Assembly: GCA_043228905.1 (NCBI GenBank)
Contig: JBHGNT010000041.1
Coordinates: 62,001 to 126,000, forward strand
Reading direction: 5' to 3'
Source: Azolla caroliniana
Taxonomy: Eukaryota > Plantae > Polypodiophyta
DNA length: 64,000 nt
Shown here piece by piece: positions 6,085 to 46,384 of the stretch. A model generated the notes under the pieces. The model was not told the origin of the DNA and searched no databases. It saw only the letters and a program-made list of their open reading frames with translations. Position numbers and translations under genes: made by a program. Each line of letters opens with the position of its first letter. The first letter of the stretch is position 1.

Positions 6085-6140
6085 CTAGCTCATTGGGTGG
6101 AGAACCTCTCGTTTCGAAGTTGAGGTCGTGGGTTCAAATC
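6085..6140 (+). promoter_or_regulatory. Second tRNA-like A/B-box cassette in the LTR, sense (second copy near 9024-9079)
   Basis: ctagctcattgg...aggtcgtgggttcaaatc: A-box tagctcattgg, B-box ggttcaaatc. Confidence 0.55.
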
Positions 6141-8579: not shown

Positions 8580-8617
8580 ACTTTGCACAACTAGTGTGCA
8601 AGTTCAGAGGGGGTGGG

Positions 8618-9437
8618 TGTCGTGAAGGATTTGCTTCACGATATAAAAGTAAACTTGAATATTGTCTCAAGTAACATTTGAGAGACTTGAACCCGTAACC
8701 TCACACACCAAGGACGAAGCATATACCATTAGGATAAGTTATTTTCTATAGTTATATTTTTATCACAATACTTATGACATGTGTATCTTCATACAATAGA
8801 GCTTAGATGAGCATGATGGCTATCATGCATCACATGCAAAGCATGTGCGCCAAATGGCAATCATGCATCACATGCATCACATGCATGCCATGCACCCCCA
8901 TATCATCATATGCATGAGAGAACCTATAAAGAGAGGCAAGGAATTAAGGGATGGATCAAAGGAAAACAGGGTAATGAATGAATCAAGAGAAAGTGAGAAA
9001 ATAATACAATCAAGTAAAGAAGACTAGCTCATTGGGTGGAGAACCTCTCGTTTCGAAGTTGAGGTCGTGGGTTCAAATCAAGGGTCGGTAGAGAATGTGT
9101 TCAGTTTGCGATCAAGGATTATAAAGTTGGTAAAATATTGTCTTTTTAATATACATCATGTTTATATCAAATACTCTTGCTTCTTGATTCATACTTTGTC
9201 TCAATCTTCCTTATTAAATCATATTTTGTCTCTATCTTGCTTCTTGAATCATATATTGTCTCTATCTTCTATCTATTCTCATCTCTCTCACACACACACA
9301 TTACTCGTAACTCTTCTTCTTGCTACTCTTAACCTTTCTAACATCACCATACAAGCCTTATTAAAATTTAAGTTCCTTCAACTCCCCTTAACCTTCGTCC
9401 CTGCGACTTCGCCGCACAAACCACAACTACCCCGACA
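8618..9437 (+). repeat. 3' LTR of Trp-primed element
   Basis: Direct repeat of 5679-6491, preceded by PPT. Confidence 0.93.
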
Positions 9438-14200: not shown

Positions 14201-14945
14201 AACCGACCGACCTAGACCGACCATCTATTGTGACTCACAGAGCACAATACACCTCATCAACAATCCCTTCTATCACACAAAAACGAAGCATATTGAGGTG
14301 TGGTATCATCGCATCCGGGAGCTCATAACCGAGAAGAAGCTCGATGTCCGGAAAATCGACACCGAGGTGAACATCGCCGATTGTCGGGCGAAGCCACTCC
14401 CAGATCTACGCTTCGGAGCACTAAGGACGAAGATGGGACTATGACAAGCGACCGAGCAAAAGAAAGCCAAACGAGGGACAGTAGGTAAGACCTAATCGGA
14501 ACAACTATATCTATGCTTACTATACCTCTGTTGACTCGGCCGCATGCCAACTGACTTGGAATGTAAATTTAGGATAATCTTGTAATCTAGATTTACGGGG
14601 GAGATAACCCCAAACATTTGTATACGCAAGAAAGAGTAGTCCTTTTACGGGGGAGTTTGTTGGCATAAAAGCCCGACTCCTTCCAATTTGTATTCGGCCT
14701 AGCGTGAACTCGTCCACATAGTTAGGGCTTAGTATATAAGCAATAACCTGATGTTGTAGAGAAGAGATAGATATATACACATTGTATCAAGACTCTGAGA
14801 GAGAGAGAGAACGTAATAAAGCTTTCCATTAAAGCTCATTTCTGTGTAAGTCTCCGCCTTCCTCCCCTTCTGTGTTGTTTTCTGACATATGCAAACAAGT
14901 TCTCATATGCTTCCGCATACGCACACACCTACCAAACTTTCTACA
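11274..14945 (+). mobile_element. pol: Ty1/copia family B, 3' portion (integrase-RT-RNase H-3' LTR), degenerate
   Basis: VRHVPDLKRSLVS, LVHIDICGP, RVFGCEAY, QMDVKTTFLHG, LYVDDML, TKHIEV. PPT ttacgggggag, then LTR 14658-14945 (tgttgg...ctaca). Confidence 0.9.
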
Positions 14946-15183
14946 AGATGTTCACAGAACAGTAGATCCATGAAAGTACTTAACAACCACATTGTCAAGT
15001 CGACACAAGCTCAATCCCATAGATTGAAAGACATTTCTTGCCACAACATAATGTATATGGAATTGTACATATTGAATGGGCTTTGTTGGCCACATAAAAT
15101 ATTTTTGGAATTGTACATGGTTGATGTGCACTACTTGCCATGTAAAAGGTACTATTGGTAGATGAAAGAATTCATGTTATCTA

Positions 15184-15256
15184 GTCGGCCTAGCTTAGAT
15201 GGTAGAGGGCAAGGCTCTTCACCTTGTGGTCGTGGGTTTGAGCCCTATGGCCTACG
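15184..15256 (+). pseudogene. tRNA-Lys(CUU) degenerate copy
   Basis: Homologous to 17935-18007 with substitutions in the anticodon loop and T-loop. Confidence 0.8.
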
Positions 15257-15588
15257 TCATACCATGTAAAATGTTTATTGAATTGTAGATTAATGAAAGT
15301 ATTTAACAAACATGTCAGGCTACCTTAAATGCTAGAACCACATGATTGGCGTTATTTGCCATGTAAAATGTTCATGGAACTCAAAAAAACTTAAGAAACA
15401 TGTCAACATAGACTCAATACCCACCCATGTCTGACGAGTGTTTCTTGCCACATAAAATGTATATGACATTGTACATGTTGGACAGGCTTTGTTGGCCACA
15501 TAAAATGTTTTTGGAACTCTACATGCTTGATGGCACTGCTTGCCACATAAAAGGTACTCTTGGTAGATGAAAGACTTCATGTTAGCTA

Positions 15589-15661
15589 GCCACCCTAGCT
15601 TAGATGGTAGAGCACAAGGTTCTTAACCCTTTGGTCATGGGTTCGAGCCCCATGGCCGACA
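15589..15661 (+). pseudogene. tRNA-Lys(CUU) degenerate copy
   Basis: Homologous; acceptor and anticodon stem mismatches. Confidence 0.8.
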
Positions 15662-16006
15662 TTTCATACCACGTAAAATGTTCATTGAATTGTAGATCAA
15701 TGAGAGTATTTGACAAACATGTTAGGCTAGCTTAAATGGTAGAACCTCATGGTTGGCGTTATTTGCCATGTAAAATGTTCATGGAACTCTAGACCCATTA
15801 AAGAACTTAAGAAACATGTCAGCATAGGCTCCATACCCACCCATCTTTGATGTGCGTTTCTTCCCACATAAAATGTATATGGAATTGTACATGTTGGACG
15901 GGCTTTGTTGGCCACATAAAATGTTTTTTGGAACTCTACATGCTTGATGTGCATTGCTTGTCACGTAAACGATACTCTTGGTAGATGAAACACTTCATGG
16001 TATCTA

Positions 16007-16080
16007 GCCGGCCTAGCTTAGATGGTAGCGGCCCAAGGCTCTTAACCTTGTGGTCATGGGTTTGAGCCCCATTGCCGATG
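16007..16080 (+). pseudogene. tRNA-Lys(CUU) degenerate copy
   Basis: Homologous; D-arm and B-box mutated. Confidence 0.8.
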
Positions 16081-16469
16081 TTTCACGTTACCACGTAAAA
16101 TGTTCATTGAATTGTAGATGAATGAAATTATTTAACAAACATGTCAGGCTAAGCTTAAATGGTGGAAACTTATGGTTGGCGTTATTTGCCATGTAAAATG
16201 TACATGGAACTCTAGATCCATAAAAGAACTTAAGAAACATGTCAACATAGGCTCAATACCCAACCAAACATAGTAGCATAGGCTCAATACCCGCCAAACA
16301 TATTAGCATAATCTAAATACCCACCCATGTTTAACGAGCGTTTCTTGCAACATAAAATGTATATGGAATTGTACATGTTGGATGGGCTTTATTGGCAACA
16401 TAAAATGTTTTTGCAAGTCTACATGCTTGATGGGCACTGCTTGGTAGATGAAAGAATTCATATCATCTC

Positions 16470-16540
16470 GCTAGCCAGCTCAAATGGTAGAGCGCAAAGG
16501 CTCTTAACCTTGTGATCATGGGTGAGTCCCATGGTTGGTG
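16470..16540 (+). pseudogene. tRNA-Lys(CUU) degenerate copy
   Basis: Homologous; small indels, T-loop deleted. Confidence 0.75.
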
Positions 16541-16887
16541 ATGTTCATGAAACCCTAGATACATGAAAATACATAATAACCGCATCATCACGCCCACATG
16601 GCCAACCTAGTTTAAATGGTAGAGGGTGGTTGGTGTTGCTTGCCATGTAAGATGTTCACAGAACTCTAGATCCGTGAAAGTACTTAACAACCACATTGTC
16701 AAGTCGACACAGGCCTGATCCCCTAGATTTAAGAGCATTTCTTGCCACATAATAATGTCTATGGAACTGTACATCTTGAACGGGCTCTGTTGGCCACATA
16801 AAATGTTTTTGGAACTCTACATGCTTGATGTGCAGAGCTTCCCATGTAAAAGGTACTCATGGTAGATGAAACGTTTCATGTTATCTA

Positions 16888-16960
16888 GCTGGCCTAGCTC
16901 AGATGGTAGAGCGCAAGGCTCTTAACCTTGTGGTCATGGGTTCAAGCCCCATGGCCGGCG
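16888..16960 (+). tRNA. tRNA-Lys(CUU), near-intact (T-loop TTCAA)
   Basis: 73 nt, paired acceptor stem GCTGGCC/GGCCGGC, anticodon loop CTCTTAA. Confidence 0.75.
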
Positions 16961-17404
16961 TTTCATATCACGTAAAACATTCATTGAATTGTAAACCCAT
17001 GAAAGCATTTAACAAACATGTTAGGCTAGCTTAAATGGTAAAACCTCATGGTTGGCGTTATTTTCCATGTAAAATGTTCATGGAACTATAGATCCATAAA
17101 GTAACATAACAAACATGTCAGGCTCAATATTTTCCATGTAAAATGTTCATGGAACTAGAGATTCATAAAGGAACATAACAAACATGTCACATGTCAGGCT
17201 CAATACCCATGTTTGAAGAGCGTTTCTTGCCACATATAATGTTCTATCGAACTCTACATGTGGGAAGGGCATTTTTAGCCACATAAAATGATTTTGGAAC
17301 TCTACATGCTTGATGTGCATTGTTGGCCCTGGTTGAAGGGAGAATATGAACAAACGAAGGAAAAAGAAAGATATATTGGTACATGAAACCTTTCTTGTTA
17401 TCTA

Positions 17405-17477
17405 GCTGGCCTAGCTCAGATGGTAGAATGCAAGGCTCTTAACCTTGTGGTCATGGGTTTGAGCCCCATGGCTGGTG
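17405..17477 (+). pseudogene. tRNA-Lys(CUU) degenerate copy
   Basis: Homologous; D-stem and T-loop transitions. Confidence 0.8.
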
Positions 17478-17934
17478 TTTCATACCACGAAAAATGCTCA
17501 TTGAATTGTAGATCAATGAAACTATTTAACAAACATGTCAGGCTAGCTTAAATGGTAGAACCTCATGGTTGGCGTTATTTTCCATGTAAACTGTTCATGG
17601 AACTCTAGATCCATAAAGGAACATAACATAAAAGAAAAATATATTGAAATGGTGGAGTTTTATCCAATAATTCGACTCGACTTGACAAGTATTAGGAGGA
17701 GATAGAAATACACATGTATTACTAGGAACGTGGAAGTTTATTTCTTATTGATGAAGATGGGTTTGTCTTTAAATATACCACGGATTTTAATCCAGATAGA
17801 CCTTTCTCTGACTATTCGTTGCAGAATTATCTGCGTCGACCAACCTTGTTAATTAAGCTTCAATTATTGTTCGGTGAAAACAACATTTACGGGACTCTAG
17901 GTAGATGAAATACACAAATAAACCATGTTGTCAA

Positions 17935-18007
17935 GCCGGCCTAGCTCAGATGGTAGAGCGCAAGGCTCTTAACCTTGTGGTCATGGGTTCGAGCCCCATG
18001 GTTGGCG
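17935..18007 (+). tRNA. tRNA-Lys(CUU), intact cloverleaf
   Basis: GCCGGCCTAGCTCAGATGGTAGAGCGCAAGGCTCTTAACCTTGTGGTCATGGGTTCGAGCCCCATGGTTGGCG matches the plant cytosolic tRNA-Lys(CUU) layout. CAA at -3 to -1. No immediate T-run terminator. Confidence 0.82.
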
Positions 18008-18321
18008 ATGTTCGTGAAACCCTAGATACATGAAAATACATAATAACCACGTCAATAACTTCACATGGCCATTTACCTAAATTAAATTGTAGAGGGTGGT
18101 TGGTGTTGCTCTCCATGTAAGATGTTCATAGAACACTGGATCCATGAAAGTACTTTACAACCACATTGTCAAGTCGACACAGTTCTTGCCACATAAAAAT
18201 GTATATGGAATTGTACATGTTGGATGGGCACATAAAATGGTTTTGGAACTCTACATGCTTGATGTGCACTTCTTGCCACATAAAAGGTACTCTTGGTAGA
18301 TGAAACGTTTCATGTTATCTA

Positions 18322-18394
18322 GCTGGCCTAGCTCAGATGGTAGAGCGCAAGGCTCTTAACCTTGTGGTCATGGGTTCGAGCCCCATGGCCGGCC
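18322..18394 (+). tRNA. tRNA-Lys(CUU), intact cloverleaf (C discriminator)
   Basis: All four stems pair; A- and B-boxes intact. Confidence 0.78.
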
Positions 18395-18933
18395 TTTCAT
18401 ACCATGTAAAACGTTCATTGAATTCTAGACCAATGAAAGTAATTAACAAACATGTCAGGGTAGCTTAAATGGTAAAACCTCATGGTTGGTGTTATTTTCC
18501 ATGTAAAATGTTCATGTAACTATAGACACATAAAGTAACATAACAAACATGTCAGGCTCAATATTTTCAATGTAAAATGTTCATGAAGGAACATAACAGA
18601 TATGTCAGGCTCAATACCCATGTCTGAATAGCGTTTCTTGCTACATATAATGTTCTATCGAACTCTACATGTGGGAAGTGCATTTTTTGCTACATAAAAT
18701 GATTTTGGAACTCTACATGCTTGATGCGCATTGTTGGCCCTGGTTGAAGGGAGAATATGAACAATCGAAAGAACACCACGGATTTTTAATCCAGATAGAC
18801 CTTTCTCTGACTATTCATTGTAGAATTACCCCCGTCGACCAACCTTGTTAATTACGCTTGGATTATTGTTCGGTGAAAACAATGTTTACGGGACTCTAGG
18901 TAGATGAAATACACAAATAAAGCATGTTGTTAA

Positions 18934-19006
18934 GCCGGCCTAGTTCAAATGGTAGAGCACAAGGCTCTTAACCTTGTGGTCATGGGTTTGAGCCCCACGG
19001 TTGGCG
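18934..19006 (+). pseudogene. tRNA-Lys(CUU) degenerate copy
   Basis: Homologous; D-arm and T-loop transitions. Confidence 0.8.
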
Positions 19007-19237
19007 ATGTTTGTGAAACCCTAGATACATGAAAATACATAATAACCACGTCAATAACTTGACATGGCCATTTACCTAGTTTAAATTATAGAGGGTGGTT
19101 GGTGTTGCTCTCCATGTAAGATGTTCATAGAACACTGGAGCCATGAAAGTACTTAACAACCACATTGTGAAGTCGACATAGGCTTGATCCCCCAGATTTA
19201 AAAGCATTTATTGACACATAAAAATGTATATGGAACT

Positions 19238-19753
19238 TGTTGAGAATGGCGCGGAATATTGCTCGGCCACAATCGAGTCTTGAACACTTCTATGAGAATG
19301 AAACACAGAAATGGGAAGTGGAGGGTACACAAAAGGTAATACACAGGATGTTTACGTGGAAAACCCTGAATGGGAAAAACCACGGGAGCTCACAGACTCC
19401 AACTATCACTATGAAGAAAAAGAGGGTACAAGCAGAGACTCGGAGGCAACGACCTCGAGCTCTGTATCTTTGCCAACCGGCGGTTACAACAGGGTATTTC
19501 TTTGTATCTCACACTCTCTCTTTGTCGCTCTCTCTCTCTCTCTGTACAACAATATGACAATAACAACAACAACCACTACATAGAGTGATTGCCCTAAGTC
19601 ATATTTATACTTATTTGAACTTAGGGCTATTTACAAATATAGCCTCAATAGGCTTACTCAAAACATATTTACAGATATGTCTTCTCTTCTGGTTCTCACA
19701 GAGTCCTCTTTATTCATCACCGAATCCCATCCGGAGAGACCGATTTCCCAACA
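19238..19753 (-). repeat. Copia family A LTR (probably a 3' LTR), reverse orientation
   Basis: Reverse complement of LTR 39351-39927; TG...CA ends; no matching TSD on its own flanks. Confidence 0.85.
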
Positions 19754-20329
19754 ATCTCGCAACTTGGATACCGCCAATCTGACTCTGACCCATGCATTTA
19801 TATTAGGCAACTGGTCGACGAGTCTAGGATTTATCTGATCCTATATGTCGATGGCTAGAGATCGGAAAGCTGAAGTGGTGCCTTCACGACAAGTTTGCGA
19901 TGAAGGAACTCGGACAAGCCCATTGCATACTGGGCATGAGGATCGAGCGAAATCAGATGACCAAGACTCTCCAACTCTCCCAGTCCAACTATATCCGGAA
20001 GGTCCTGAAACGCTTCAACATGCACAATGCGTAGCCAACACCAACACCGCTTCCGACGTTGATCCGACTATTGGACAGAGACTCTCCTTCAATGGACAAG
20101 GAGAGAGAGCTTAATGGAAAGATGGCCTACGCATCAGTTGTACGCAATGGTGGTGACCCGACCCGACCTAGCCTATGCCGTAGGAGTGGTCAGCCGGTAC
20201 ATGTCAAATCCAGGACGGAAGCATTGGGAGGCCGTCAAGCACATCTTCAAGTACCTGAGAGGGACCAAAGATACACAACTGACTTTCGGTTTGACAACCT
20301 CAACCGAAGTCAAAAGCTACATGTCATGA

Positions 20330-20397
20330 TATGGCAAGACTCGAACCCATGACCTTATACTACATGGGTCGAGCTCTTGACCATTAGACTATACATT
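20330..20397 (-). promoter_or_regulatory. tRNA-like Pol III A/B-box cassette at the U3 end of family E LTR, antisense (also near 25553-25620)
   Basis: Minus strand reads gtatagtctaatggtcaagagctcgacccatgtagtataaggtcatgggttcgagtcttgcc: A-box tagtctaatgg, B-box ggttcgagtc. Confidence 0.65.
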
Positions 20398-20739
20398 GTA
20401 ATATGTAGAATAATATTTTCATTTATGTTTTATTATAGAAAATTGATGTATATTCTAGATTTCTCTGGAACATTCTAGAAACTTCAGGAGTATTCCTTAG
20501 AACACTATAAAAGGAGGCACAAGGCATTATTTTGAGCCAAATCGGTTCAACGCCAGTCTTAAGCCTCCTAGCTACTGTACATTTTCTTCACATAATATAT
20601 ATCTTTTCTTATCATCACTCACTCTCTCCCTCCCTCCCTCTCACTCACTCTTTCCTTCTCTCGAGAGTTCTTCACCTCTCTTAGTACTAATACTTCTTTT
20701 AGTACTAATTCCTTCTCTGTCTTAGTACTGTTCCTGACA

Positions 20740-20754
20740 GTTTGAACCGATTTT
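20740..20754 (+). promoter_or_regulatory. Self-priming PBS (Tf1-type)
   Basis: ttgaaccgattt (20742-20753) is the exact reverse complement of aaatcggttcaa (20539-20550), about 33 nt after TATAAAA at 20506. Confidence 0.8.
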
Positions 20755-20813
20755 CCCTACCTTTTGTCTCTCTCATTTCCTACTAATCTCTTATTCCTCT
20801 TTTCTTTCATCCC

Positions 20814-21965: not shown

Positions 21966-21991
21966 GTCCAACCAAAATAGGAGCCGTTTGG

Positions 21992-26877: not shown

Positions 26878-27058
26878 CTTCAACGGCACGAGGGCACATT
26901 TTCACGGTTTCATCAAACAAATTCGGCTAATCATCCGATAACAACCCCAACAGTATGCTAATGACTTTTCTCAAATTGGCCTCATCGGCACCCTTCTCTT
27001 TGGGCCAACGCAAGCATGGTTTGCACCCTTGGTCGAGACCTCATCCCCTCTCTTACAA
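26878..27058 (+). pseudogene. Short Tcn1-like gag fragment from a different subfamily
   Basis: Translates FNGTRAHFHGFIKQIRLII...IGLIGTLLFGPTQAWFAPLVETSSPLL, homologous to Gag 20814-21965. Confidence 0.7.
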
Positions 27059-27967
27059 CTTCCACGTTCCTAGTAATACATGTGTATTTCTATCTCCTCC
27101 TAATACTTGTCGAGTCGAGTCGAATTATTAGATAAAACTCCACCATTTCAATATATTTTTCTTTTATGTTATGTTCCTTTATGGATCTAGAGTTCCATGA
27201 ACATTTGACATGGAAAATAACGCCAACCATGAGGTTCTACCTTTTAAGCTAGCCTAATATGTTTGTTAAATACTTTCATTGATCTATAATTCACTGAACA
27301 TTTTATGTGGTATGAAACGCTAGCCATGGGGCTCGAACCCATGACCACAAGGTTAAGAGCCTTGCGCTCTACCATCTGAGCTAGGCCAGCTAGATAACAA
27401 GAAATGTTTCATCTACAAATATTTCTTTCTTTTTCTTTCGTTTGTTCATATTCTCCCTTCAACCAGGGCCAACAATGCACATCAAGCATGTAGAGTTCCA
27501 AAATCATTTTATGTGGCCAAAAATGTCCTTCCCACATGTAAAGTTCGATAGAACATTATATGTGGCAAGAAATGCTCTTCCGACATGGGTATTCAACCTA
27601 ACATGTTTGTTATGTTCCTTTATGGATCTCTAGTTCCATGAACATTTTACACAGAAAATATTGAGCCTTACATGTTTGTTATGTTACTTTATGGATCTAT
27701 AGTTCCATTAACATTTTACATGGAAAACATGTTTGTTATGTTGCTTTATGGATCTCTAGTTCCATGAACATTTTACATGGAAAATATTGAGCCTTACATG
27801 TTTGTTATGTTACTTTATGGATCTATAGTTCCATTAACATTTTACATGGAAAATAACGCCAACCATGAGGTTTTACCATTTAAGCTAGACTGACATGTTT
27901 GTTAAATACTTTCATTGTTCTACAATTCAATGAACGTTTTACGTGGTATGAAACCCCGGCCATGGGG
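27059..27967 (-). repeat. tRNA-Lys satellite block 2, inverted relative to block 1
   Basis: Reverse complement of about 16950-17740. Confidence 0.9.
27318..27390 (-). tRNA. tRNA-Lys(CUU), intact cloverleaf
   Basis: 73 nt; acceptor GCTGGCC/GGCTAGC pairs; CTT anticodon; GGTTCGAG B-box. Confidence 0.8.
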
Positions 27968-29800
27968 TGAAAAGAATGTCGTGCGGAAGCAATATAGGAG
28001 ACAGAACAATAGAAGACGCGGGTTTAATGGAAGCTTAGGTTTGCATAGTACGCACGAGATAGACAGAGAGAGAGAGAGAGTAAGCACAAGAACTTAATTC
28101 AAAAATAATACTCAATTTGTACATAGGATTTGCTCAGTGAGCACTTTTATACAAGCCCTAACAATCGGGCCGACACAAGTGCTGACACAAGTACTGACAG
28201 TACTGGACTACTCATAAATGAGCCTCGACACTTACTCCCAAAACTATTCCTTACGAGGAATATCTTTCTAACGGCCTTTCGGTCTATGCACCGATACGAC
28301 CTCTCGTTACGCACCGATTTGCGTACCGGTTTACACATCCGTTTTACGCACTAGTTACGCATCGAATTACGCACAAATGTTGAGCTTGTCTCTCAACACT
28401 CCCCCTCAAGCTCAACTTGAGGTTCCGCTTGCTCCGCCGGATCTACGCTCCGGCTTCTCCTAGCTCCACGCCTTGCTCGCGCTCCTCGGCCTGTTCGACT
28501 CCGCGCGCTTCGACCCTTCCGATCGGCTTGTCTACTCCCATGGCCCTTCACAACTCCCTTGCTGCCGCGGTGTTGACGTTTCTCCTATTGCCTTCTTTTC
28601 CGCTTGGCCCTCGGTTGATTTAGATACACTGAATCAAACATCCGAACCGACTCGGCTACCTCCGATCGGTTTTTGCTCTCGTTCGAGTTGGCTGTCCCCA
28701 ACTCGTCTTCGGTCTTCTTGCCCTTGATGGCGTCATCTCCCCCATGCTTGGTTGGCTTTGGCTCTTTCTTCTGGCTGCTCCCCTTATGTCCGTTTTCGGA
28801 CTCTTCCGCGGATCCGCCCTCGGCGTCTTCAACCGATCCGAAGTCGAATTCGTGATCCGACTCGGTGCCACAGTCTTTTCCACTCCTTTCCTGCTCCCTT
28901 CCGTGCTCATCTGGGACGTCTCTCCCCCTCAAGTTCGGCACGTCGAGGTGACGCAACCCAAGCGCACCCGAGAATTTCCGCAACTTGTCTAGACCAAGAG
29001 GCTTGGTGAAGATGTCAGTGGTCTACCGATCCGTCGGAACATACTGAAGTTCGACTTCACCAGAAAGGACACGCTCATGGACGAAATGGTAGTGCACCTC
29101 AATGTGCTTGGTCCGTGCGTGGAAGACAGGGTTCTTCGCGAGCTGGATGCTGTTGAGGTTGTCACAGTAGATCGTCGTCGGATCGGACACCTCCACCTAC
29201 AGATCCTTAAGTAGCTGCTTCAACCATATGGCCTCGCATGTCGCGACAGCCGCTCCTCTATACTCGGCTTCAGTGCTCGACAGTGCAACTATTGGCTGCC
29301 TCTTGCTACTCCACATTATCGCGGCACTCCCAAGAGAGAACGCATATCCGGACGTGGATCGGTGATCAACGATCGGTGGTGTTGCCAGCCATATCAGCAT
29401 CGGTGTAGCCGACCAACTACGAGGCTAGACCGGTCCAAAATAGCAGTCCCCGGTCCTTAGTACCGCTTACGTACCGCAGTACGCGTTGTGCAAACTGAAG
29501 GTGCTCCTCGGTAGGTCGCGCCATAAACTAATTGATCACCCCGACCGGATAACTGAGATCGGGTCAGGTGATTGTCAATTAGATAAGGCTTCCGACAATT
29601 TGTCGGAACCTTGTCGGATCGCAAACCTTGTCGGAATTGGGGTGACGCTTGACGGTTCTATCCAAAGGAGTCGAGACAGACTTACAGTCGGCCATCCCGA
29701 ATTTGAAGAGCATATTCAGCGCGTAATGCCATTGGCTGATCAGTATGCCTTCGGAGGTGCGGATCACTTCGATCTCGAGGAAGTAATGAAGGTCCCCTAG

Positions 29801-32800
29801 TGTTACGGGCATGACCATTTAATATCCCGTGGTGAGAATTTACCGTAGTATTCTATACACGTGGATAAGTGTGAGGGTTAAACGAGAGTGTAAAGAAGGG
29901 GAGGATTATTTTTAATCCTCGGGATTGAGACAACCCATTAGGTCAAGTGTAAACTTGCCTGGGGGCCTTGGGTATCGCTATAAATAAGAGGCCTAGCTAC
30001 CCTCATTTGATCATCTTTTTTACTACATTGAGACTCTGCTCTTGTGGTGGGTCAACTCTTGTAGCGAGCGCGCCAGCACCAGGTATGACTCAACGCCACG
30101 GTGGTGGTATGGGACGCCGATCGAGGCTCGAGTCCGTCTCGATCCCTTCGCTCGGGGGTGGTCAGGTGGATCGGCACCCTTCTTTCTCTTTCTCCTTTCT
30201 ATCTATCATTTGTTTATCCTTATCTTAAGCTTACTTTAGTACTTAGATCTCTAATATTTGGTAATAGATTTATGTACTAATGTTTCTTTGTTTTTCATTT
30301 GTCTTTTGATTGATGCCGATCGATCGTTGTGCGGTCGGCCTTGATCCAGACAACGATCAACAAAGAACTTCGGTAACTCTTTCCATAATTTTTTTTTTCT
30401 ATTCTCTCTTCTCCCATCTAATCGTGTGTTTAGTTTATATGTCAATTTTTTTCATTAAGTCAATGATGTTGTAGTGGTCTTTAATTGATTATCTAAAACG
30501 TTTACATATGTGCACGAGGTCAATACCTCGTTTGACATATTAATAATATGTGATGAGTGTCGTATGCGTACGAGGTTAATACCTCAATTACGTATTACAT
30601 TCATGAACACATGTTACGTTTGCGTATGAGTTTAATACCTTGATTTGTTGTAAACGATATGCGGTTGGTTTCGTATGCGTAAGAGGTCAATACCTCAATT
30701 GCGTATTACGATGATCTCTTATTTGAGGATGTTTCGTGTGCGTAGAGGTATATACCTCGATTACGTATCTCGATCACATCATTTGTGGCTATTTAATATA
30801 ACGATATGTTTAATATAGGCATATGTGGTCACATATATACGTATTTGATCGTATATATGTGATAATTAAACATATGTGTATATTCGTTATTACGTGATTA
30901 TATCGAAAGTTGTTCTTGTCGGGAAAAGGATGTTGGTGGCCGTCCTCACATTTTTGTGAGACATAATGATGTTGAGTACGTAGGGCTTGACCCACTTCAA
31001 GTGAGGTCGCTCCAATGATGCACGTATCCAACATCCCTCCCTCGTTACATGGATACGATGCCACCATGAGCTCGTTCTTACGAGAGGCATTCGTAATGAC
31101 GTGACCATGTGATGGGCCATGTGGGCCTACTACGAAACGAAGGCTCATTTGGCTTGACCATTAGGTTGCAATTTGGCGTATGCCATCGTAATTACGAGAC
31201 TTGAGGTTAGGTAACGTACCAACATAGTTTTGGTAAATGAGGGCGAAATAAGGACCCTTGAAATATATGTTCTTTTAAAAAAAAACATATATGATCAATT
31301 GCCTTGCACATCTCTTATACGCATCAAACATTAAGCATTCGAGAAGAGCAACTTACTTGGTTGGCTCAAGTGTTTAATGTATTTGTTCTCGAGGTCTCGA
31401 GTTCAAATATGACCAAGACCATACAACATCCCTGATACATATGACTATAACACATGTTTAGACTTAAGGTCTAAGTGCACCTCGGGGTCCTCGTAATAGG
31501 ACTTAAAGAGCCGAAACCACATATGTGGGCACTGAAACATTGTTTATTGTTAACATTTTTTTCGTGTATAAACAATTCATGACGCGAACATACATGGTTG
31601 AGCCTCGGGGAGCCACCATGAAAAAATCGATATAGAGATCAGGGAAAGACATTTATTTGTCACCCCCATGGTTTTTAAAACACCTTTGTGTTACCATAGT
31701 AACTTGATCTTGAACCTCATCTCATACGTCTAGAGGGGTATTGACGTGAGATAATGATATCGATTAATGCTCGCCCATGATATGTTTACATCACGACATG
31801 ATGTTATGACTATATCTCTGACCTTGTCCTATTTCTTTTCCAGAAATAATCTTTAATGGCTCAAATTAACGACCCGATGTCATCCGCTCAAGCGGAAGGA
31901 ACTCAAGGGAATCCTCCTGGACAAATGTCCACTGAGATGTATTTGGCACAAATAACCCAATACCTTAGTTTCACTGTTCAACAGATGACCAAACTTCGGC
32001 AATCTCAGAGTGTTCTTGAGGCACGTGTCATTAGTCTACAAAACCTATTGTGTGGAATGGTACACTAGACCTCGCCTTTAAGGAAGTCAAGGACCTGGTT
32101 TGCAAGGCTCCTTCACTTCTTTTACCTGATCCTTCAAAACCTTTTGAGGTTGAAACCGATGCAAGCGATTATGCTATAGGTGCTGTCTTGTATCAAGATG
32201 GTAAACCAATAACATTCGAGAGTAAGAAACTTGATTCTGCTCAATGTCGGTATACCGTTCAAGAAAAGGAATTATTTGTAGTTATACATGCGCTCAAAAC
32301 ATGGCGCCATTATCTTTATGGAAATCGCTTTGTGGTAACTACGGACCACGAGTCCTTGAAATATTTTTGTGACCAACAAGACCTGAAAGGTCGTAAGGCA
32401 CGATGGGCTGATCTCATCCAGGACTTTGATTTTTCCATACGATATCGTAAAGGTTCCATGAACACTGTCGCTAATGCACTAAGTCGCATTCGTGAAGTTT
32501 AAACATGCTTAGCTTCACTGAAATAACATCAGATCTTTATGATCACCTTCGAGGAAAGTATCCTGATGACAGTTATTTTGCAAAATACTGGGCAAGAGTT
32601 GAGTCTGGAACAGACACCACCACATCCTCGAAGGAATACTTCCACATTGCTAACGGTTTGCTCTACCGTAATGGGAAGGTTTGTGTTCTAGATTTACCCG
32701 AGGTCAAAAAGAGGATTCTTTTTTAATGCCATGATGCACCCTCAGTAGGGCACCCTGGAATACATCGTACACTCGTTCTCATCTCCACTCAATTTTATTA

Positions 32801-34420
32801 GCCTAAGATGCGTCCTGACATACATAGCTATGTGACTAAATGTCACCAGTGTCAGGTTAACAAAGCCGAGCGACTTAAAGCCGCAGGACTTTTACATCCC
32901 TTGGACATTCCCAATAATAAGTGGGAAAGTATATCCATGGATTTTATTGTTAGCCTTCCTCGCACCCAAGAAGGTCATGATGCCATCTGGGTTGTCGTTG
33001 ATCGACTAACTAAAATGGCCAGATTTATTGCTACTAAAACCACGGTAACAACTCCTAAATTGGCTTACCAATTCGTTGACGAATTGTTTCGTTTTTATGG
33101 GTTACCGATGGATATCGTGAGTGATTGAGGTCCTAAGTTTACTAGTGACTTCTGGACGCAAGTCTTTAAGAAGTTAGAAACTACGTTGAGCATGAGTAAA
33201 TAATATTATTGAGGACATGCTTCGAGCATACGTTGGTGCAAAACCAACAAAATGGGAACGTTATCTCCCAATTTTGGAGTTTGCTTATAATAGCTCCAAG
33301 CATACGTCGACGGGATATAGTCCTTTTATGTTGATGTATGGTTTTCAGCCACGAGCCCCGATTGATGTTAATATACATCATGATGAGTTGCGAAGTACGC
33401 AAAACTTTCTTCGGGATATGCAAGATATGTTGCATATTGCACGAGATAATATAAAAACAACTCAAGATAGAGCGCGTTTTTATGCCGATCATCATAGGCA
33501 ACCTCATGTATTCAACCCTGGACAAAAGGTATTTTTACGTGTACCTCACAATTCTAAGACATTGTCTACGGGTAAGTGCGCTAAGTTAGCCCCACGGTTT
33601 TGTGGACCTTTTACAGTCCTCAAACGCATTGGGTCATCAGCCTATTGTCTTGCTCTTCCCGATGGTGTTGGAATTCATCCAGTCTTCCATGTGAGTCGTC
33701 TAAAAGAACTTCTAGGTTCTGGCGACAATACAGTTACAACTGAAACTCAGGTTACTTCTCAAGAATTATCTTCTAAACCACATGTACCAGAAAGAATTCT
33801 CGATGTTAAAACAAAAAAATTACATACTAAAGAAATCCGAGAATTTAAAATAAAATGGATGGATAAATCAATAAAAGATGCCACATGGGAACGCGAAAAT
33901 ACTCTCAGAACTAATTTCCCTAACTTTCCATTGCAAGAGTGCAATGTTTTAAAGAGGGGGAGTATGTTACGGGCATGACCATTTAATATCCCATGGTGAG
34001 AATTTACCGTAGTATTCTATACACGTGGATAAGTGTGAGGGTTAAACGAGAGTGTAAAGAAGGGGAGGATTACTTTTAATCCTCGGGATTGAGACAACCT
34101 ATTAGGTCAAGTGTGAACTTGCCTGGGGGCCTTGGGTATCGCTATAAATAAGAGGCCTAGCTACCCTCATTTGATCATCTTTTTTACTACATCGAGACTC
34201 TGCTCTTGTGGTGGGTCAACTCTTGTAGCGAGCACGCCAGCACCAGGTACGACTCGACGCCACGACGGTGGTATGGGACGCCGATCGAGGCTCGAGTCCA
34301 TCTCGATCCTTTCACTCGGGGGTGGTCGGGTGGATCGGCACCCTTCTTTCTCTTTCTCCTTTCTATCTATCATTTGTTTATCCTTATCTTAAGCTTACTT
34401 TAGTACTTAGATCTCTAATA
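29801..34420 (+). mobile_element. Internally deleted chromoviral gypsy (family F)
   Basis: 456-bp LTRs 29801-30256 and 33965-34420; TSD cctag/cctag; degenerate PBS tggtaataga; PPT aagagggggag. Gag start at 31856 is joined to RNase H near 32050 (most of gag, PR and RT lost). Integrase and chromodomain (PERILDVK...KIKWMDKSIKDATWE) retained. Confidence 0.9.
30505..30775 (+). repeat. Five ~56-bp degenerate tandem units, each with a gaggt-N4-acctc hairpin, in the 5' leader of family F
   Basis: Hairpin cores at about 30516, 30572, 30628, 30683 and 30745. Confidence 0.75.
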
Positions 34421-35517
34421 CCTAGATCCTTCATGTCGAATGATGCCGCAAGTTGGAGCTTCACGCGGTCCATTTCACCTAGGTCAGCGTCGGTGATGAC
34501 CAAGTCATCAACATATAGTAAAATACTGACCGGCCCGAGTCGACCTTTCCGGATGAACAGGGAAGAGTCTGATTTGGACGTTGCAAAGCCCAACCGACGC
34601 AGTTGCTGCGTGATCTTCACGTTCCAGGCACGCGGGGCTTGCTTCAGTCCATAAAGGGACTTCTTCAATCGGCACACCGCCGAAGTGTTCGTTCCAGAGT
34701 GAAATCCGGGGGGTTGTACCATGTACACCTGTTCCTCAAGCTTACCTTGCAAGAACGCATTCTTTACATCCATTTGATGTAAGTGCCACACCTTTGCCGT
34801 AGCTACCGCGAGCAAAACACAGACGGTCGACATCTTCGCGACCGCCGCAAACGTCTCATCGTAATCGATGTCGTGTTTCTACGCAGAGCCTTTTGCCACT
34901 AACTGGGCCTTCTATCGGTTGACCGAGCCATTGGTGTTGTACTTGACCTGGTACACCCACCTACATCCGATCGGCTTCACACCCTTCAGTGCGTCAACCA
35001 GGTCTCAGGTTTCATTTTCCACCAATGCGTGCATCTCTTCCTCCATTGCGGTGCACCAATTCACGTCCATAGCTGCTTCTGCGTAGATCTCCGACTCACG
35101 CACTTCCGCTACATGGGTCATGTACGTATAATGATGCGCCATGTACTCGTTGTATCCGAACCACACAACAGGGTTCTTCTGGCGGGTAGATCGGCGTAAT
35201 TGGTCATTAGCCAATGTCAAGGTCTTCTCGGCCGACGCGGACTTCGCTCTTGAAGACCCATCACCGGTTCCCTCGGTGTCGGACTCGCATCGGTCTGACT
35301 CGTTCCTTCCCGTGACGGAATCCGACACCTTCTTCGTCCCTCTCTCTCTGCACGTAAGCCGTCTCCTCGGCTTCCTACGCGGGGAATGCACGGCTGAGTC
35401 TCCACTACTCGCCGGCTCTTCATCGGACTGGTCGAACCGACTCAGTCGTCCATTCAGTCCACTTATCCGAAACGAAATCGGGACTCTCTTCGTGAGTCCC
35501 GATTTCAGGTTCATCCG

Positions 35518-36165
35518 TGTTGGGAGACAAGTCCCTCTGGATGGGAAGGGAGAAGAATAGTGATGATAAGCAAACTCGGTCGAGGCCAATAGGCCTCGGC
35601 CGAAATCGGATGAGGAGTACCCGGCTACGGAGAGCCGGATGGTGCAGACCCGGTGAGAACCGGATGAGGAGTACCCGGCTACGGAGAGCTGGATGATGCA
35701 GACCCGGTGAGAACCGGATGAGGAGTACTTGGCTACGGAGAGCCGGATGGTGCAGACCCGGTGAGGAGTGCTCACCGGATGAAGAGACATATTTGTAAAT
35801 ATGTTTCTGAGAGTCCACCATGGCTATATTTGTAAATAGCCGAAAAGTCATATTAGTATAAATATGACTTAGGGCAAACTTTTAGCAGTAGTTGTCATTC
35901 TTACTGTGTACAGAGAGAGAGAGAGAGAGAAAGAGGTCGTTGCCTCTGTTGTAACCGCCATGAACTCACTGTTGTACATTCTAACACAGTGATAGTTTGC
36001 AGCCTGTGGGCTGCCGTGGTTTTTTCCCTTAGTTTGGGTTTTCCATGTAAACATTCTGCGTACTCGTCTCTTCTTCGTGTCGTTCATTATTTCCCATTTT
36101 CTGTGTATGATTCTAAGCTCCGTTGTGGCCGAGCGTTGCGTATACGGAGCGTGTTGTTCCTGTCA
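35518..36165 (+). repeat. Solo LTR related to copia family A, with three ~54-bp internal tandem repeats
   Basis: tgttgg...tgtca ends; TSD atccg/atccg. Unit ggatgaggagtacccggctacggagagccggatggtgcagacccggtgagaacc at about 35608-35765. Confidence 0.88.
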
Positions 36166-38554
36166 ATCCGGAGGAATCTCGGCCTCGCTGACCTCATCGT
36201 CAGAACTCGGATTGGAGGTAAGGTCCGGAGTCGGAGGCAAGTACCAGGACGCGGACTCGTCAATCACAATGTCACGGCTCACGCGCGCTTGTTTAGTGCG
36301 CGAGTTATAACACTTATAACCCTTCTGCTTCTCCGAGTAACCGACCAAGATACATTTCTCGGCCTTTGTGTCTAGCTTCCTCCGTTTCTTTTTCGGCACA
36401 TGCACATACGCAATGCTACCGAAAACTCGTAAGTGTCGCAAGTTCGGCTTCGTTCCGAAATATAGCTCGTGCGCCGACAGTTTTTCTCCGATCCGATTCT
36501 GGATGTATACCGTGGTCCTTACCGCCTCGGCCCAGTAGAACTTGGGCAAACTCTTCTCTTCCAGCATTTCCCGTGCCGCTTCCACAACCGACCCATTTTT
36601 CCTCTTGGCCACGCCATTTTGCTCCGGCGTGTATCTAAAACTGAATTCACGCCGAATTCCCATTTGTTGCAGATAGCCATTGAATTGACCAAAAAAGTAC
36701 TCTTTTCCACCATCCGACTGTAGGCACTTGATCTTTCTTCCTGTTTCCGTTTCCACGAACCCTTTGAGGTCCTGGAAACAGCCGAAGACTTCACTCTTCC
36801 TCTCCATGAGGTAGATCCATGTGTGCCGCGTGTAGTCGTCGATGAAGGAGACGAAATATCGGCTCCTGCCAAGACTAACATTTTGTGCCGGCCCCCACAC
36901 ATCAGAGTGTATCACGTCGAGCTTGTTCCGGCTCTGGTTACGCTCGTTGGGGAAGGGAAGTCGGTGTTGCTTCCCAAGCTGGCAGGCTTCACAAATTTGT
37001 GCCTTCCGGCCACTAAATTTGGGCAATCCGAACTCCACTTGTTTCGATTGTAGGTCTTGAAGCCACTAGTAGTTGACGTGGCCTATCCGATTGTGCCATA
37101 AGTCAATGTCCGACTGGACTTTTTGTCCCTTCGCGAACATTGCGGTGCCACTGTCAATAGAGTGGAGGATGAACATCCTTCCATCTCTGCGCCCTTGCGC
37201 AATAATACGGCCTTCTTCCTCAATGAAGCACCCGAGGTGTGTAAACCAAACCTGCATCCCCTGGTCGACGATCTGCCCGACCGACACCAGATTCTTCGTG
37301 ATGGTCGGGATGTGTAACACGTTCATAAGTCTCCCTTTCTGCCCAACATTGCTCAAGGGAACTTCATCGACATTCGCGATAGGATGCAGAGTGTCGTCTC
37401 CGGTTGCAACTACTCCTGGTTGCGTCGGTTTCTCAAGGTATGAGAACCACTCCTCATGGCACGTCATGTGGTTTGACGTGCCGGAGTCAACGTACCACAC
37501 CTCCTCTGACTTTGGGGTGATCTTCTTCATTGAGTTTGCTTCGTGTCTCGTCACGAAGACTGACCCTTTTCCGACTTTTCCGGATCCTTCGGCGTAGTGC
37601 GATCGCTGCCGGTTTCCTTTGTCGATATTTCTGGAACCTGATCCGGAACCGGTCCTCTCCGACTCGGCGCGCTTTTTCCAACACTCGCTCTCCTTGTGGC
37701 CTTTGTTGCCACAGTACCAGCATTCCGCAGCGGATTTCCCTTGCCAGTTCTCGTCGCCTCGATTCCCCTTGTTTCCGGAGGGTCCGGAATTGTTGTCGAC
37801 ATCACTTCGGTGCCTTCTTCCTTGATCTCGTCAGCTGTCTGAGTTCCTAATACTCAATCTGTACATAGGATGTGCTCAGTGAGCACTTTTATACAAGCCC
37901 TGACAATCGGGCTGACACAAGTGCTAATAGTACTTGACTGCTCATTAATGAGCTTCGACACTTACTCCCAAAACTATTCCTTACAAGGAATATCTTTCTA
38001 ACGGCCTTTCGGTCTACGCACCGGTTTACGCATCCGTTTTATGCACAAATGTTGAGCTTGTCTCTCAACATGGGGCTCGAACCCATGGCCACAAGGTTAA
38101 GAGCCTTGCACTCTCCCATCCGAGCTAGGCCAACTAGATAACATGGAACATTTCATCTACCAAGAGTATGTGTTACGTGGAAAGAAGTGCACATGAAGAA
38201 TGTAGAGTTCCAACAGAGCCCATCCAACATGTACAGTTCCATATACATTTTTATGTGGGAAGAAATGCCTTTAAATCTAGGGGATCAAGCCTGTGTCGAC
38301 TTGACAATGTGGTTGTTGGATCCAGTGTTCTATGAACATCTTACATGGAGAGCAACACCAACCACCCTCTACAATTTAAACTAGGTAAATGGCAATGTGA
38401 AGTTGATGACGTGGTTATTATGTATTTTCATGTATCTAGGGTTTCACGAACATCGCCAACCATGGGGCTCTAAAATTTAAACTAGGTAAATGGCAATGTG
38501 AAGTTGATGACGTGGTTATTATGTATTTTCATGTATCTAGGGTTTCACGAACAT

Positions 38555-38627
38555 CGCCAACCATGGGGCTCGAACCCATGACCACAAGGTTAAGAGCCTT
38601 GCGCTCTACCATCTGAGCTAGGCTGGC
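38555..38627 (-). tRNA. tRNA-Lys(CUU), intact cloverleaf
   Basis: GCCAGCC/GGTTGGC acceptor stem; otherwise identical to 17935-18007. Confidence 0.8.
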
Positions 38628-39150
38628 TTGACAACATGCTTTATTTGTGTATTTCATCTACCTAGAGTCCCGTAAACATTGTTTTCACTGAACAATAATC
38701 CAAGCGTAATTAACAAGGTTGGTCGACGCAGGTAATTCCGTAATGAATAGTAAGAGAAAGGTCTATCTGGATTAAAATGACCAATAGGTTGAGCGCCTTG
38801 CGCTCTACAATCTAAGCTAGGCCAGCTAGATAACAAGAAATGTTTGATCTACCAATATATCTTTCTTTTTCTTTTGTTTGTTCATATTCTCCCTTCAACT
38901 AGGGCCAAAAATGCCCTTCCCACATGTAGAGTTCGATAGAACATTATATGTGGCAAGAAATGCTCTTCCGACATGGGTATTTAGCCTGACATGTTTGTTA
39001 TGTTCCTTAATGGATCTCTAGTTCCATGAACATTTTACATGGAAAATAACGCCAACCATGAGGATTTACTATTTAAGCTAGCCTAGCATGTTTGTTAAAT
39101 ACTTTCATTAAGTGGTCTACAATTCAATGAACGTTTTACGTGGTATGAAA

Positions 39151-39226
39151 CGCAGGCCATGGGGCTCGAACCCATGACCACAAGGTTAAGAGCAAGGTTG
39201 CGCTCTTCCATCTGAGCAAGGTCAGC
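39151..39226 (-). pseudogene. tRNA-Lys(CUU) degenerate copy
   Basis: Homologous; anticodon stem disrupted by a small insertion. Confidence 0.75.
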
Positions 39227-39350
39227 TAGATAACATAAAACGTTTCATCTACCAAGAGTACCTTTTACGTGGCAAGAAGTGCACATCAAGCATGTAGAGT
39301 TCCAAAAACATTTTATGTGGCCAACTGAGCCCATCCAACATGTACATTTC

Positions 39351-46238: not shown

Positions 46239-46343
46239 TATTATACCGCCATCCTAAATCCCCCTTTTTCATCACATTAAGAACTCCCCCCTCACCATCA
46301 TCATTATACTCATTTCCCCTCTCTCATTCCCTATCACTATCCT

Positions 46344-46384
<41 letters not shown>

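What the first reader, a model, noticed from the sequence alone, without database searches (positions are those of the whole stretch)
14946..19237. Satellite DNA built around tRNA-Lys(CUU): about 14 copies, five with intact cloverleafs
Seen: 9 copies on + (15184-19006) and 5 on - (27318-39226), spaced about 400-600 bp in a complex tandem array. No per-unit TSDs or poly-A tails were seen, so these are not dispersed SINEs. Most copies have a paired ATGGG/CCCAT T-stem instead of the usual GTGGG/CCCAC, and the acceptor variants still pair. There is no T4+ run right after the tRNA, so Pol III would read into the satellite. Inference: either an amplified tRNA gene cluster decaying into satellite, or a Pol III-transcribed satellite that is a source of tRNA fragments or siRNAs. 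It is also the substrate into which several copia elements inserted.
Basis: partly seen in the sequence, partly recalled or inferred. Interest (0 to 1): 0.75.

Follow-up and report, generated by a model that had tools for sequence, protein, structure and literature searches.

The report
Decaying tandem tRNA-Lys gene cluster
Fourteen head-to-tail copies of a lysine tRNA gene, mixed with scraps of likely chloroplast DNA and cut apart by jumping genes, form a small local cluster in what is likely a fern genome; it is likely silenced and decaying, an ordinary kind of plant tRNA gene cluster rather than an abundant satellite.

Summary
In detail: 14 tRNA-Lys(CUU)-derived copies, five still cloverleaf-competent. 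Target-site duplications join the three pieces (14946-19237 +, 38071-39345 -, 27058-27962 -) into one 6.5-kb array, split by copia insertions (one inside a tRNA) and an apparent inversion. It is not an abundant satellite: in short-read contigs the spacer lies at about 7-8 times single-copy depth, against thousands for flanking LTRs. Each 400-600-bp unit also holds an internally deleted tRNA remnant; three-unit blocks carry organelle fragments (one from plastid rpoC2). The A49-U65 T-stem was likely inherited from a natural variant: a dispersed gene elsewhere (L113) has it. tRNA bodies diverge as fast as spacers (8.0% vs 7.6-7.9%), mostly by C>T/G>A; five intact copies exceed neutral expectation only mildly (P 0.035-0.11). 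Best reading: a locally amplified tRNA gene cluster, likely methylated and decaying, like Arabidopsis Cys/Pro/Ser-Tyr-Tyr clusters but for Lys in a seedless plant. Contigs point to a second, unrelated tandem tRNA-Lys family elsewhere in the genome. Expression is untested. The scan had no look-alike by sequence; it noted analogous tRNA-derived arrays in unrelated genomes.

The parts
14946..19237 (+). Array piece A: 9 tRNA-Lys copies with spacers; left end cut by a copia 3' LTR (ends 14945), right end by an LTR starting 19238
38071..39345 (-). Array piece B, the continuation of A (4 copies: 39226, 38826 partial, 38627, 5' part of 38134)
   Evidence: 5-bp duplication GAACT (19233-19237) / GAAAT (39350-39346, 4 of 5 match) beside a 91.9% identical LTR pair
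27058..27962 (-). Array piece C, the continuation of B (3' end of the split copy, copy 27390); ends at another copia LTR at 27057
   Evidence: perfect 5-bp duplication CCCCA at 38075-38071 and 27967-27963
15184..15256 (+). tRNA-Lys(CUU) copy, decayed (2 broken pairs, C56T, A37C)
   Evidence: (39.1 bits)
15589..15661 (+). tRNA-Lys copy, decayed (5 broken pairs)
   Evidence: (43 bits)
16007..16080 (+). tRNA-Lys copy, decayed (insertion, 2 broken pairs, C56T)
   Evidence: (34.6 bits)
16470..16540 (+). tRNA-Lys copy, decayed (indels, B box lost); not called by ARAGORN or Rfam
16888..16960 (+). tRNA-Lys copy, cloverleaf-competent (type I flanks)
   Evidence: (65.6 bits)
17405..17477 (+). tRNA-Lys copy, decayed (D-stem mismatch, C56T; type II flanks)
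   Evidence: (47.1 bits)
17935..18007 (+). tRNA-Lys copy, cloverleaf-competent, CAA at -3 (type III flanks)
   Evidence: (64.4 bits)
18322..18394 (+). tRNA-Lys copy, cloverleaf-competent but C73 (type I)
   Evidence: (64.1 bits)
18934..19006 (+). tRNA-Lys copy, decayed (A49xC65, C56T, G15A; type III)
   Evidence: (50.5 bits)
39151..39226 (-). tRNA-Lys copy, decayed (3-nt insertion, 3 broken pairs)
   Evidence: (31.2 bits)
38777..38826 (-). 5' 50 nt of a tRNA-Lys copy, fused to a plastid-derived piece by a deletion
38555..38627 (-). tRNA-Lys copy, cloverleaf-competent, CAA at -3 (type III)
   Evidence: (66.3 bits)
38071..38134 (-). 5' 64 nt of the copy split in its T-stem by a copia element (rest at 27962-27954)
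27318..27390 (-). tRNA-Lys copy, cloverleaf-competent (type II)
   Evidence: (66.3 bits)
17542..17574 (+). Example of the internally deleted tRNA remnant (5' arm plus 3' arm, about 39 nt missing); 9 of this kind (15319, 15726, 16148, 17025, 17542, 18459, 39082, 27890, 27253), 4 of a second kind (16601, 18068, 19067, 38393), 1 hybrid at a 101-bp duplication (38486)
17328..17378 (+). Organelle-depth insert 1 (gene not identified); copies at 18739-18773, 38853-38903, 27418-27467
   Evidence: (tables 5, 7)
17639..17722 (+). Organelle-depth insert 2, contiguous with insert 1 in high-depth contigs; copy at 27057-27169
   Evidence: (joint 17370-17639)
17725..17881 (+). Plastid rpoC2 fragment (85% to P0081, RNA polymerase beta' family on 83.6-kb contigs); partial copies at 18775-18889 and 38672-38778
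19238..19753 (-). LTR of the copia element that cut the array; partner LTR at 39351-39929, followed by a primer-binding site and gag
27968..38070 (-). Copia element with nested insertions, inserted inside a tRNA copy
19758..19759 (.). Inferred inversion breakpoint: the LTR's purine tract stops after 5 nt and joins another family's RT; other end near 42912
   Evidence: (table 7, place 19758)

Best explanation
This is one local tandem cluster of 14 tRNA-Lys(CUU)-derived copies that likely grew from a single gene by repeated unequal recombination and break repair, and is now likely methylated, silent and decaying at the same rate as its spacer DNA. Shown: the three pieces join into a 6.5-kb array; each unit holds a full tRNA, a related ~60-bp module repeated several times and an internally deleted tRNA remnant; organelle fragments sit inside units and were duplicated with them; a three-unit block (~1.43 kb, flank types I-II-III) recurs four times; copia elements inserted afterwards. 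Inferred order: a dispersed tRNA-Lys variant (GCCGGCC acceptor, A49-U65) with its 3' flank duplicated as a ~130-bp monomer; one monomer lost its tRNA centre, giving the ~410-bp unit; plastid DNA was captured as filler in break repair; the three-unit block amplified; homogenisation stopped about when the LTR elements landed; methyl-C deamination has eroded it since. The five intact copies would be mostly chance survivors.
For: Rejoining by 5-bp duplications. Spacer depth near the number of units in the window: median 362.5 in X1 where exact-match contigs have about 50, and 93.5 in X3 where they have 6-14; flanking LTRs 18,000-430,000 in X1. tRNA body diverges like its flanks in 7 type I copies: 41/511 (8.0%) vs 24/315 and 87/1105 (7.6%, 7.9%), Fisher p=0.92; none of 6 groupings significant. 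Private body changes 35 observed vs 41.9 expected at flank rates, P=0.16. 53 of 79 substitutions are C>T or G>A; 10 CpG positions carry 10 distinct transition alleles. CpG o/e 0.49 and CHG 0.40 vs 0.88 and 0.80 for the window. 9 of 14 copies are broken, one by a retrotransposon. Block identities to block 1 (90.5-92.8%) are like the LTR-pair identities (91.9%, 93.6%). Arabidopsis clusters are methylated and silent (PMC7544208 abstract) and its 0.4-kb-unit Cys cluster accumulates substitutions (PMC10701932 Discussion).
Against: Five intact copies are more than neutral decay predicts: 1.9-2.7 of 14 expected, P(>=5)=0.035 (pooled rate) or 0.11 (per-copy rate); a simulation that ignores shared ancestry gave P<0.001. 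Private body changes are slightly overdispersed (p=0.049): 3 in the 5 intact copies, 32 in the other 8 full-length ones. All four inferred type ancestors were intact tRNAs, so amplification started each time from intact copies. Methylation is inferred from composition only. Contig depth is a rough measure, not a copy number, and relatives under 80% identity would be missed.
Confidence: 0.68

Rival explanations
1. A partly functional cluster: the five intact copies are kept by selection and are switched on in some tissue or stage, as the Arabidopsis Ser-Tyr-Tyr cluster is in root tips, while the rest are pseudogenes.
For: Mild excess of intact copies; Rfam scores equal to control genes; two intact copies have CAA at -3; the SYY cluster mixes pseudogenes with genes and is expressed despite high methylation (PMC12308677 abstract and section 7); one gene of the Cys cluster gives reads (PMC10701932 Discussion).
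Against: No overall slowing of the tRNA body; stem C>T (pairing kept as G-U) vs G>A (pairing lost) is 9 to 5, p=0.42; no T4 within 79 nt of any copy; the intact copies differ from each other and one has C73; the genome appears to hold hundreds of other tRNA-Lys-like copies, so no dosage need is evident; the locus is buried in nested retrotransposons.
Confidence: 0.18
2. The unit derives from a mobile element (tRNA-headed SINE or a Helitron carrying a tRNA), amplified in tandem at one site.
For: tRNA core has depth 14,000-25,000 in X1 and 28,000-48,000 in another species (X10), so tRNA-Lys-like sequence is highly repeated; SINE-derived satellites exist in reptiles (PMC10702118 abstract); the Arabidopsis Cys cluster overlaps annotated Helitrons; CTAG occurs in the units.
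Against: Depth falls about 40-70-fold at the tRNA ends, so the spacer has no dispersed family at >=80%; the copies are full 73-nt tRNAs 2-3 changes (plus position 16) from a dispersed gene; no poly-A or per-unit duplication; spacer has no hit in 126 control loci.
Confidence: 0.09
3. An abundant (centromeric or heterochromatic) satellite built on tRNA and transcribed by Pol III read-through into tRNA fragments or siRNAs.
For: Higher-order structure and retrotransposon-rich surroundings; no close terminator; a few single-copy contigs show related units not in this window (records 4 and 5), so the array extends somewhat beyond it.
Against: Spacer depth of a few to about 20 times single-copy; units only 84-96% alike within a flank type; no look-alike in the 264 other noted windows of this genome.
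Confidence: 0.04

Closest known systems
Arabidopsis tRNA-Cys cluster on chromosome 5 (PMC10701932, abstract and Discussion read; PMC7544208, abstract and section 13 read)
   Same: Single-isotype tandem tRNA genes in ~0.4-kb units, same orientation, pseudogene members, transposon context, variable unit number.
   Different: Here Lys(CUU), 14 copies, unit built of nested tRNA remnants, organelle filler, three-unit higher-order block, cut by copia elements; most copies broken; no T4 terminator close by.
Arabidopsis Ser-Tyr-Tyr and Pro clusters; maize Ile/Ala and barley Gln clusters; moss Ile/Cys clusters (PMC13437025 sections 10-11; PMC12308677 section 7; PMC11700998 passages; PMC12652284 Results part 1)
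   Same: Block-wise tandem duplication with position-specific flanks; meets the >=5 genes in 5 kb rule only if decayed copies count (9 in 3.8 kb; 3 intact ones in piece A).
   Different: Those clusters keep conserved poly(T) and mostly intact genes; Lys is not among the clustering isotypes named in the passages read (supplementary tables not seen).
SINE-derived satellites of squamates (PMC10702118, abstract only)
   Same: Tandem arrays from a Pol III-type unit that stay at low copy number.
   Different: Source here is a complete tRNA gene, with no SINE body or tail and no dispersed parent family found.
Nuclear plastid DNA (NUPT) captured as filler at repair junctions (own knowledge; organellar insertions in the Azolla nuclear genome noted in 10.1101/2021.12.21.473619 passages)
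   Same: Short plastid pieces from separate places joined into nuclear DNA.
   Different: Here they were amplified as part of the repeat unit and serve as markers of its history.

Membership tests
Plant tRNA gene homocluster | At least 5 same-isotype tRNA genes within 5 kb (PMC13437025) | tested here: met
   8 ARAGORN calls within 15184-19006; only 3 of them intact, so met if decayed copies count
Plant tRNA gene homocluster | Same orientation, shared flanks from tandem duplication | tested here: met
   All 14 co-oriented after rejoining; flanks 84-96% alike within type, except 38627 whose flank holds a duplication
Plant tRNA gene homocluster | Conserved downstream poly(T) terminator | tested here: not met
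   First TTTT at +80 to +328; feature is weaker outside angiosperms
Plant tRNA gene homocluster | DNA methylation and transcriptional silence | not testable with these tools
   Only indirect: CpG/CHG depletion and C>T/G>A excess
Satellite DNA (abundant tandem repeat) | Head-to-tail repetition | tested here: met
   TRF period 418, 4.9 copies at 15034-17120; higher-order block
Satellite DNA (abundant tandem repeat) | High genomic copy number / long arrays | tested here: not met
   Spacer depth about 7-8x single-copy; depth is a rough proxy
Satellite DNA (abundant tandem repeat) | Centromeric location (CENH3) | not testable with these tools
   No genome or chromatin data held
tRNA-derived SINE | Dispersed copies of head plus body | tested here: not met
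   Depth drops at both tRNA ends
tRNA-derived SINE | A-rich or simple-repeat tail and target-site duplication per copy | tested here: not met
   None seen in 40-nt flanks of 14 copies or in the module listing
Helitron-borne repeat | 5' TC, 3' hairpin plus CTRR, dispersed family | tested here: inconclusive
   CTAG motifs occur; ends were not searched formally; no dispersed family by depth
Functional tRNA-Lys(CUU) gene | All 21 stem pairs, invariant bases, A and B boxes, CTT anticodon | tested here: met
   5 of 14 copies
Functional tRNA-Lys(CUU) gene | Transcribed, processed, charged | not testable with these tools
   Needs tRNA-seq of this species

The most novel reading that the evidence does not exclude
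This plant lineage has its own tRNA-Lys(CUU) variant (GCCGGCC acceptor, A49-U65) that repeatedly seeds independent tandem arrays, at least two in this genome, and in this array selection keeps five copies intact for stage-specific Pol III expression from inside retrotransposon heterochromatin; array birth and decay would then explain the huge tRNA and tRNA-pseudogene counts reported for ferns.
Probability: 0.12. Interest if true: 0.62.

Novelty: new member of a known kind. Interest (0 to 1): 0.3.

Why it matters
As it stands it is a well-resolved life history of a tRNA gene cluster in a seedless plant: nested duplication, organelle capture, higher-order amplification, retrotransposon invasion, decay. 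Fern genomes carry thousands of tRNA genes and over 10,000 tRNA-like sequences (Azolla) whose origin is usually put down to genome duplication; local arrays like this one are a concrete second source. If the five intact copies proved to be expressed, it would extend the conditional-cluster model from Arabidopsis to Lys and to a seedless plant, and array-specific alleles make that easy to test.

Tried and rejected
No whole genome is held, so copy number rests on contig depth. Expression: no RNA holder listed; one run guessed to be RNA (X12) laid 0 contigs; neither is evidence either way. Exact A49/T65 pattern: 0 hits in viral contigs and genome contigs. The test 'stem changes that keep pairing, 11 of 26 vs 11.0 expected' is nearly circular and is not used. 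The first neutral simulation ignores shared ancestry and was replaced; both are reported. Minimum-energy folding does not give the cloverleaf for control genes either and is uninformative. The first stitching was off by 2-3 bases at each junction and was corrected. Global alignments among blocks 2-4 (79-84%) are depressed by large indels and are not used. A hoped-for array continuation beside the LTR fragment at 48465 was not there. Organelle inserts 1 and 2 did not map to rpoC2 and remain unidentified. The supplement of PMC12652284 could not be read; it and the supplementary tables of PMC13437025 may list Lys clusters or this tRNA variant. Seven literature searches showed no report of a fern tRNA-Lys array in the listed titles and abstract starts.
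Full report
Observation. The window holds 14 tRNA-Lys(CUU)-derived copies: 11 by ARAGORN, 12 by Rfam, 14 by a profile built from the five best copies. Nine lie on + in 14946-19237 and five on - in 27058-27970 and 38065-39353; a BLAST search with the array finds no other piece in the window. Five copies (16888, 17935, 18322, 38627, 27390) keep all 21 stem pairs, the B box and the anticodon and score 64.1-66.3 bits, like control tRNA-Lys genes from other contigs (63.7-70.7). The rest have broken pairs, C56T in the B box, indels, truncation or a retrotransposon in them.

One array. The LTR starting at 19238 and the LTR at 39351-39929 are 91.9% identical over 516 sites and are flanked by GAACT and GAAAT, and the spacer sequence reads straight through that junction. 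The element at 27968-38070 is flanked by a perfect CCCCA duplication that lies in the T-stem of a tRNA copy, whose two parts sit at 38134-38071 and 27962-27954. Rejoined, the array is 6,472 bp with all copies in one orientation. The minus-strand pieces imply an inversion from 19759 to about 42912: at 19758 the LTR's purine tract stops after 5 nt, where 26 contigs of run X1 continue with the normal tract (table 7). No listed contig bridges this junction, so a mis-assembly is not excluded. Both outer ends of the array are cut by copia LTRs, so it once went further; two single-copy-depth contigs show related units that are not in the window (records 4 and 5). The surroundings are copia and gypsy elements throughout.

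Anatomy. The unit is hierarchical: tRNA, a ~60-bp module, a tRNA remnant made of the 5' and 3' arms with about 39 nt deleted, a second related module (47 of 63 positions alike in one pair), then several ~48-bp modules. There are 9 remnants of one kind, 4 of another and 1 hybrid. So the ~410-bp unit likely grew from a ~130-bp tRNA-plus-flank monomer. Flanks define three unit types, and the block I-II-III (1,434 bp in its fullest form) recurs four times, with deletions in blocks 2 and 3 and a cut in block 4. Types II and III carry foreign pieces. In four DNA runs these pieces have their own depth, about 15 to 250 times the single-copy level and varying between runs (735-872 vs 50 in X1; about 345 vs 3 in X7, on a 4,160-bp contig), as organelle DNA would. 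The piece 17725-17881 is 85% identical to P0081, an RNA polymerase beta'-family protein on 83.6-kb contigs, which I read as plastid rpoC2. A contig at near single-copy depth bridges the spacer/insert junction in X1 and X3 (17561-17814), so the insertion is nuclear and real. That such filler marks double-strand-break repair is general knowledge, not tested here.

Abundance. No genome is held, so I used contig depth, which the tool warns is no copy number. At 88% likeness X1 depth over 15055-16742 is 54-87, against about 50 for exact-match contigs, 18,000-70,000 for the left copia end and about 430,000 for the right LTR. At 80% likeness over one unit, the median of 25 spacer bins is 362.5 in X1 and 93.5 in X3, about 7-8 times single-copy (up to 15 if the X3 level is 6), peaking at about 22 over the most repeated module. 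That is what the 14 units in the window would give. The tRNA core has 14,000-25,000 in X1, so some hundreds of tRNA-Lys-like copies lie in other flanks (overlapping short contigs inflate this). Another species (X10) covers the tRNA and almost none of the spacer. Of 14 runs listed, 9 in 4 studies hold part of the array and 3 hold half of its words or more; the best may be the window's own source.

The variant tRNA. The last, L113, is a lone gene with a fully paired GCCGGCC/GGCCGGC acceptor, 70.7 bits, CAA at -3, flanks unrelated to the array and no T4 within 25 nt. It differs from the common gene at 6 positions and from the intact array copies at position 16 plus 2-3 others. The array therefore likely inherited a natural variant; the organism of L113 is unknown and it is a single example.

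Selection or decay. Against L113, 53 of 79 substitutions are C>T or G>A, and the array is depleted of CpG and CHG (o/e 0.49, 0.40 vs 0.88, 0.80), as expected of methylated plant DNA. tRNA bodies diverge as fast as flanks (8.0% vs 7.6-7.9% in 7 type I copies, p=0.92; p 0.08-0.92 over six groupings); private changes are 35 vs 41.9 expected (P=0.16). Against pure decay: starting from intact type ancestors, neutral simulation leaves 1.9-2.7 of 14 intact and reaches five with P=0.035-0.11; private changes are unevenly spread (3 in the five intact, 32 in the other eight; p=0.049). The simulation's rates, invariant-base list (recalled tRNA rules) and ancestors are my own choices and it ignores indels, which would lower the expectation. 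I read this as a hint, not proof, that some copies were protected by selection or gene conversion. No copy has T4 before +80, whereas 103 of 122 controls have it within 25 nt; non-angiosperm land plants have the lowest T4 frequency (PMC13437025 section 7). Block identity (90.5-92.8%) is close to that of the two LTR pairs that cut the array (91.9%, 93.6%), so amplification ended at about the time of those insertions.

A second family. In one search, 21 X1 and 27 X3 contigs enter the tRNA from a different shared upstream sequence, and 17 and 24 leave it into a different downstream one; motifs from these are absent from the window. 13 of the 15 joints shown go back from one tRNA copy to another, one through a 39-nt linker at single-copy depth in both runs. 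An unrelated tandem tRNA-Lys family thus likely exists elsewhere in the genome; I could not map it.

Host. A seedless land plant, likely a fern: named relatives of a gypsy gag are from Adiantum, Riccia and Physcomitrium at low identity. Earlier scan notes on this genome say fern or moss. Not settled.

Comparison. Tandem tRNA clusters are known in plants: Arabidopsis Pro, Ser-Tyr-Tyr and Cys clusters are methylated and silent (PMC7544208: abstract, section 13); the Cys cluster has ~420-bp units, a pseudogene and one weakly expressed gene (PMC10701932: abstract, Discussion); the Ser-Tyr-Tyr cluster is reactivated in root tips (PMC12308677: abstract, section 7); surveys name Pro, Ser/Tyr, Ile, Ala, Gln and Cys clusters (PMC13437025: abstract, sections 7, 10, 11, passages; PMC11700998: passages; PMC12652284: abstract, Results part 1 of 2; PMC13578239: passages). 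Azolla has about 7,500 tRNA genes and over 10,000 tRNA-like sequences (passages). SINE-derived satellites (PMC10702118: abstract) are an analogy only. I saw no Lys cluster or fern array in these texts or in seven searches; supplementary tables that I could not see may list some.

Verdict. A real, neatly reconstructable, low-copy tRNA-Lys gene cluster that is likely decaying (0.68), with a modest chance that five copies are functional (0.18). New member of a known kind; interest 0.30.

Noticed in passing
window 18316-18393, contigs of X1 and X3 (tables 5, 7; table 5c): A second tRNA-Lys(CUU) repeat family with different flanks and a different acceptor stem, with tandem joints and at least two short linkers (36 and 39 nt), lies elsewhere in this genome.
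   Followed up: partly
L113:273-345: Dispersed tRNA-Lys(CUU) gene with GCCGGCC/GGCCGGC acceptor and A49-U65, 6 changes from the common plant gene; 1 of 129 matches; host unknown.
   Followed up: partly
run X10 laid on window 18322-18394: Another species has very high depth of tRNA-Lys-like sequence (28,000-48,000; single contigs at 330-540), about half with a TTT anticodon: possibly a tRNA-Lys-bearing repeat or SINE family.
   Followed up: no
window 19758/19759 and 42912: The two ends of the inferred inversion fall at almost the same position of the copia RT (matches to 13082-13378 and 13382-13989 abut), although the two elements are of different families; unexplained, could be a mis-assembly.
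   Followed up: partly
window 42949-44310 (+): A strongly C/A-skewed, broken ORF with RT-like motifs (weak RVT_1 hit, E 0.19) that resemble Penelope-like elements (recalled, not tested); it follows a 36-bp duplicate of copia RT sequence (42877-42912 vs 42963-42998).
   Followed up: partly
window 44769-44842 (+): A degenerate tRNA-like stretch (A-box and B-box-like motifs) beside an LTR-like sequence, followed by a TA microsatellite; seen by eye, weak profile hit, not called by ARAGORN or Rfam.
   Followed up: no
window 61321-61368, 50830-50877, 25561-25580, 20338-20354: Weak tRNA-like matches (E 0.002-0.12) inside the LTR ends of one gypsy family.
   Followed up: no
window 5679-9437: LTR pair 97.6% identical around a DUF4100-type gag with no pol in between: a young non-autonomous or deleted gypsy element.
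   Followed up: no
window 17328-17378 and 17639-17722: Two organelle-depth pieces that are adjacent in the source molecule but separated by a whole tRNA unit in the array; source gene not identified.
   Followed up: partly
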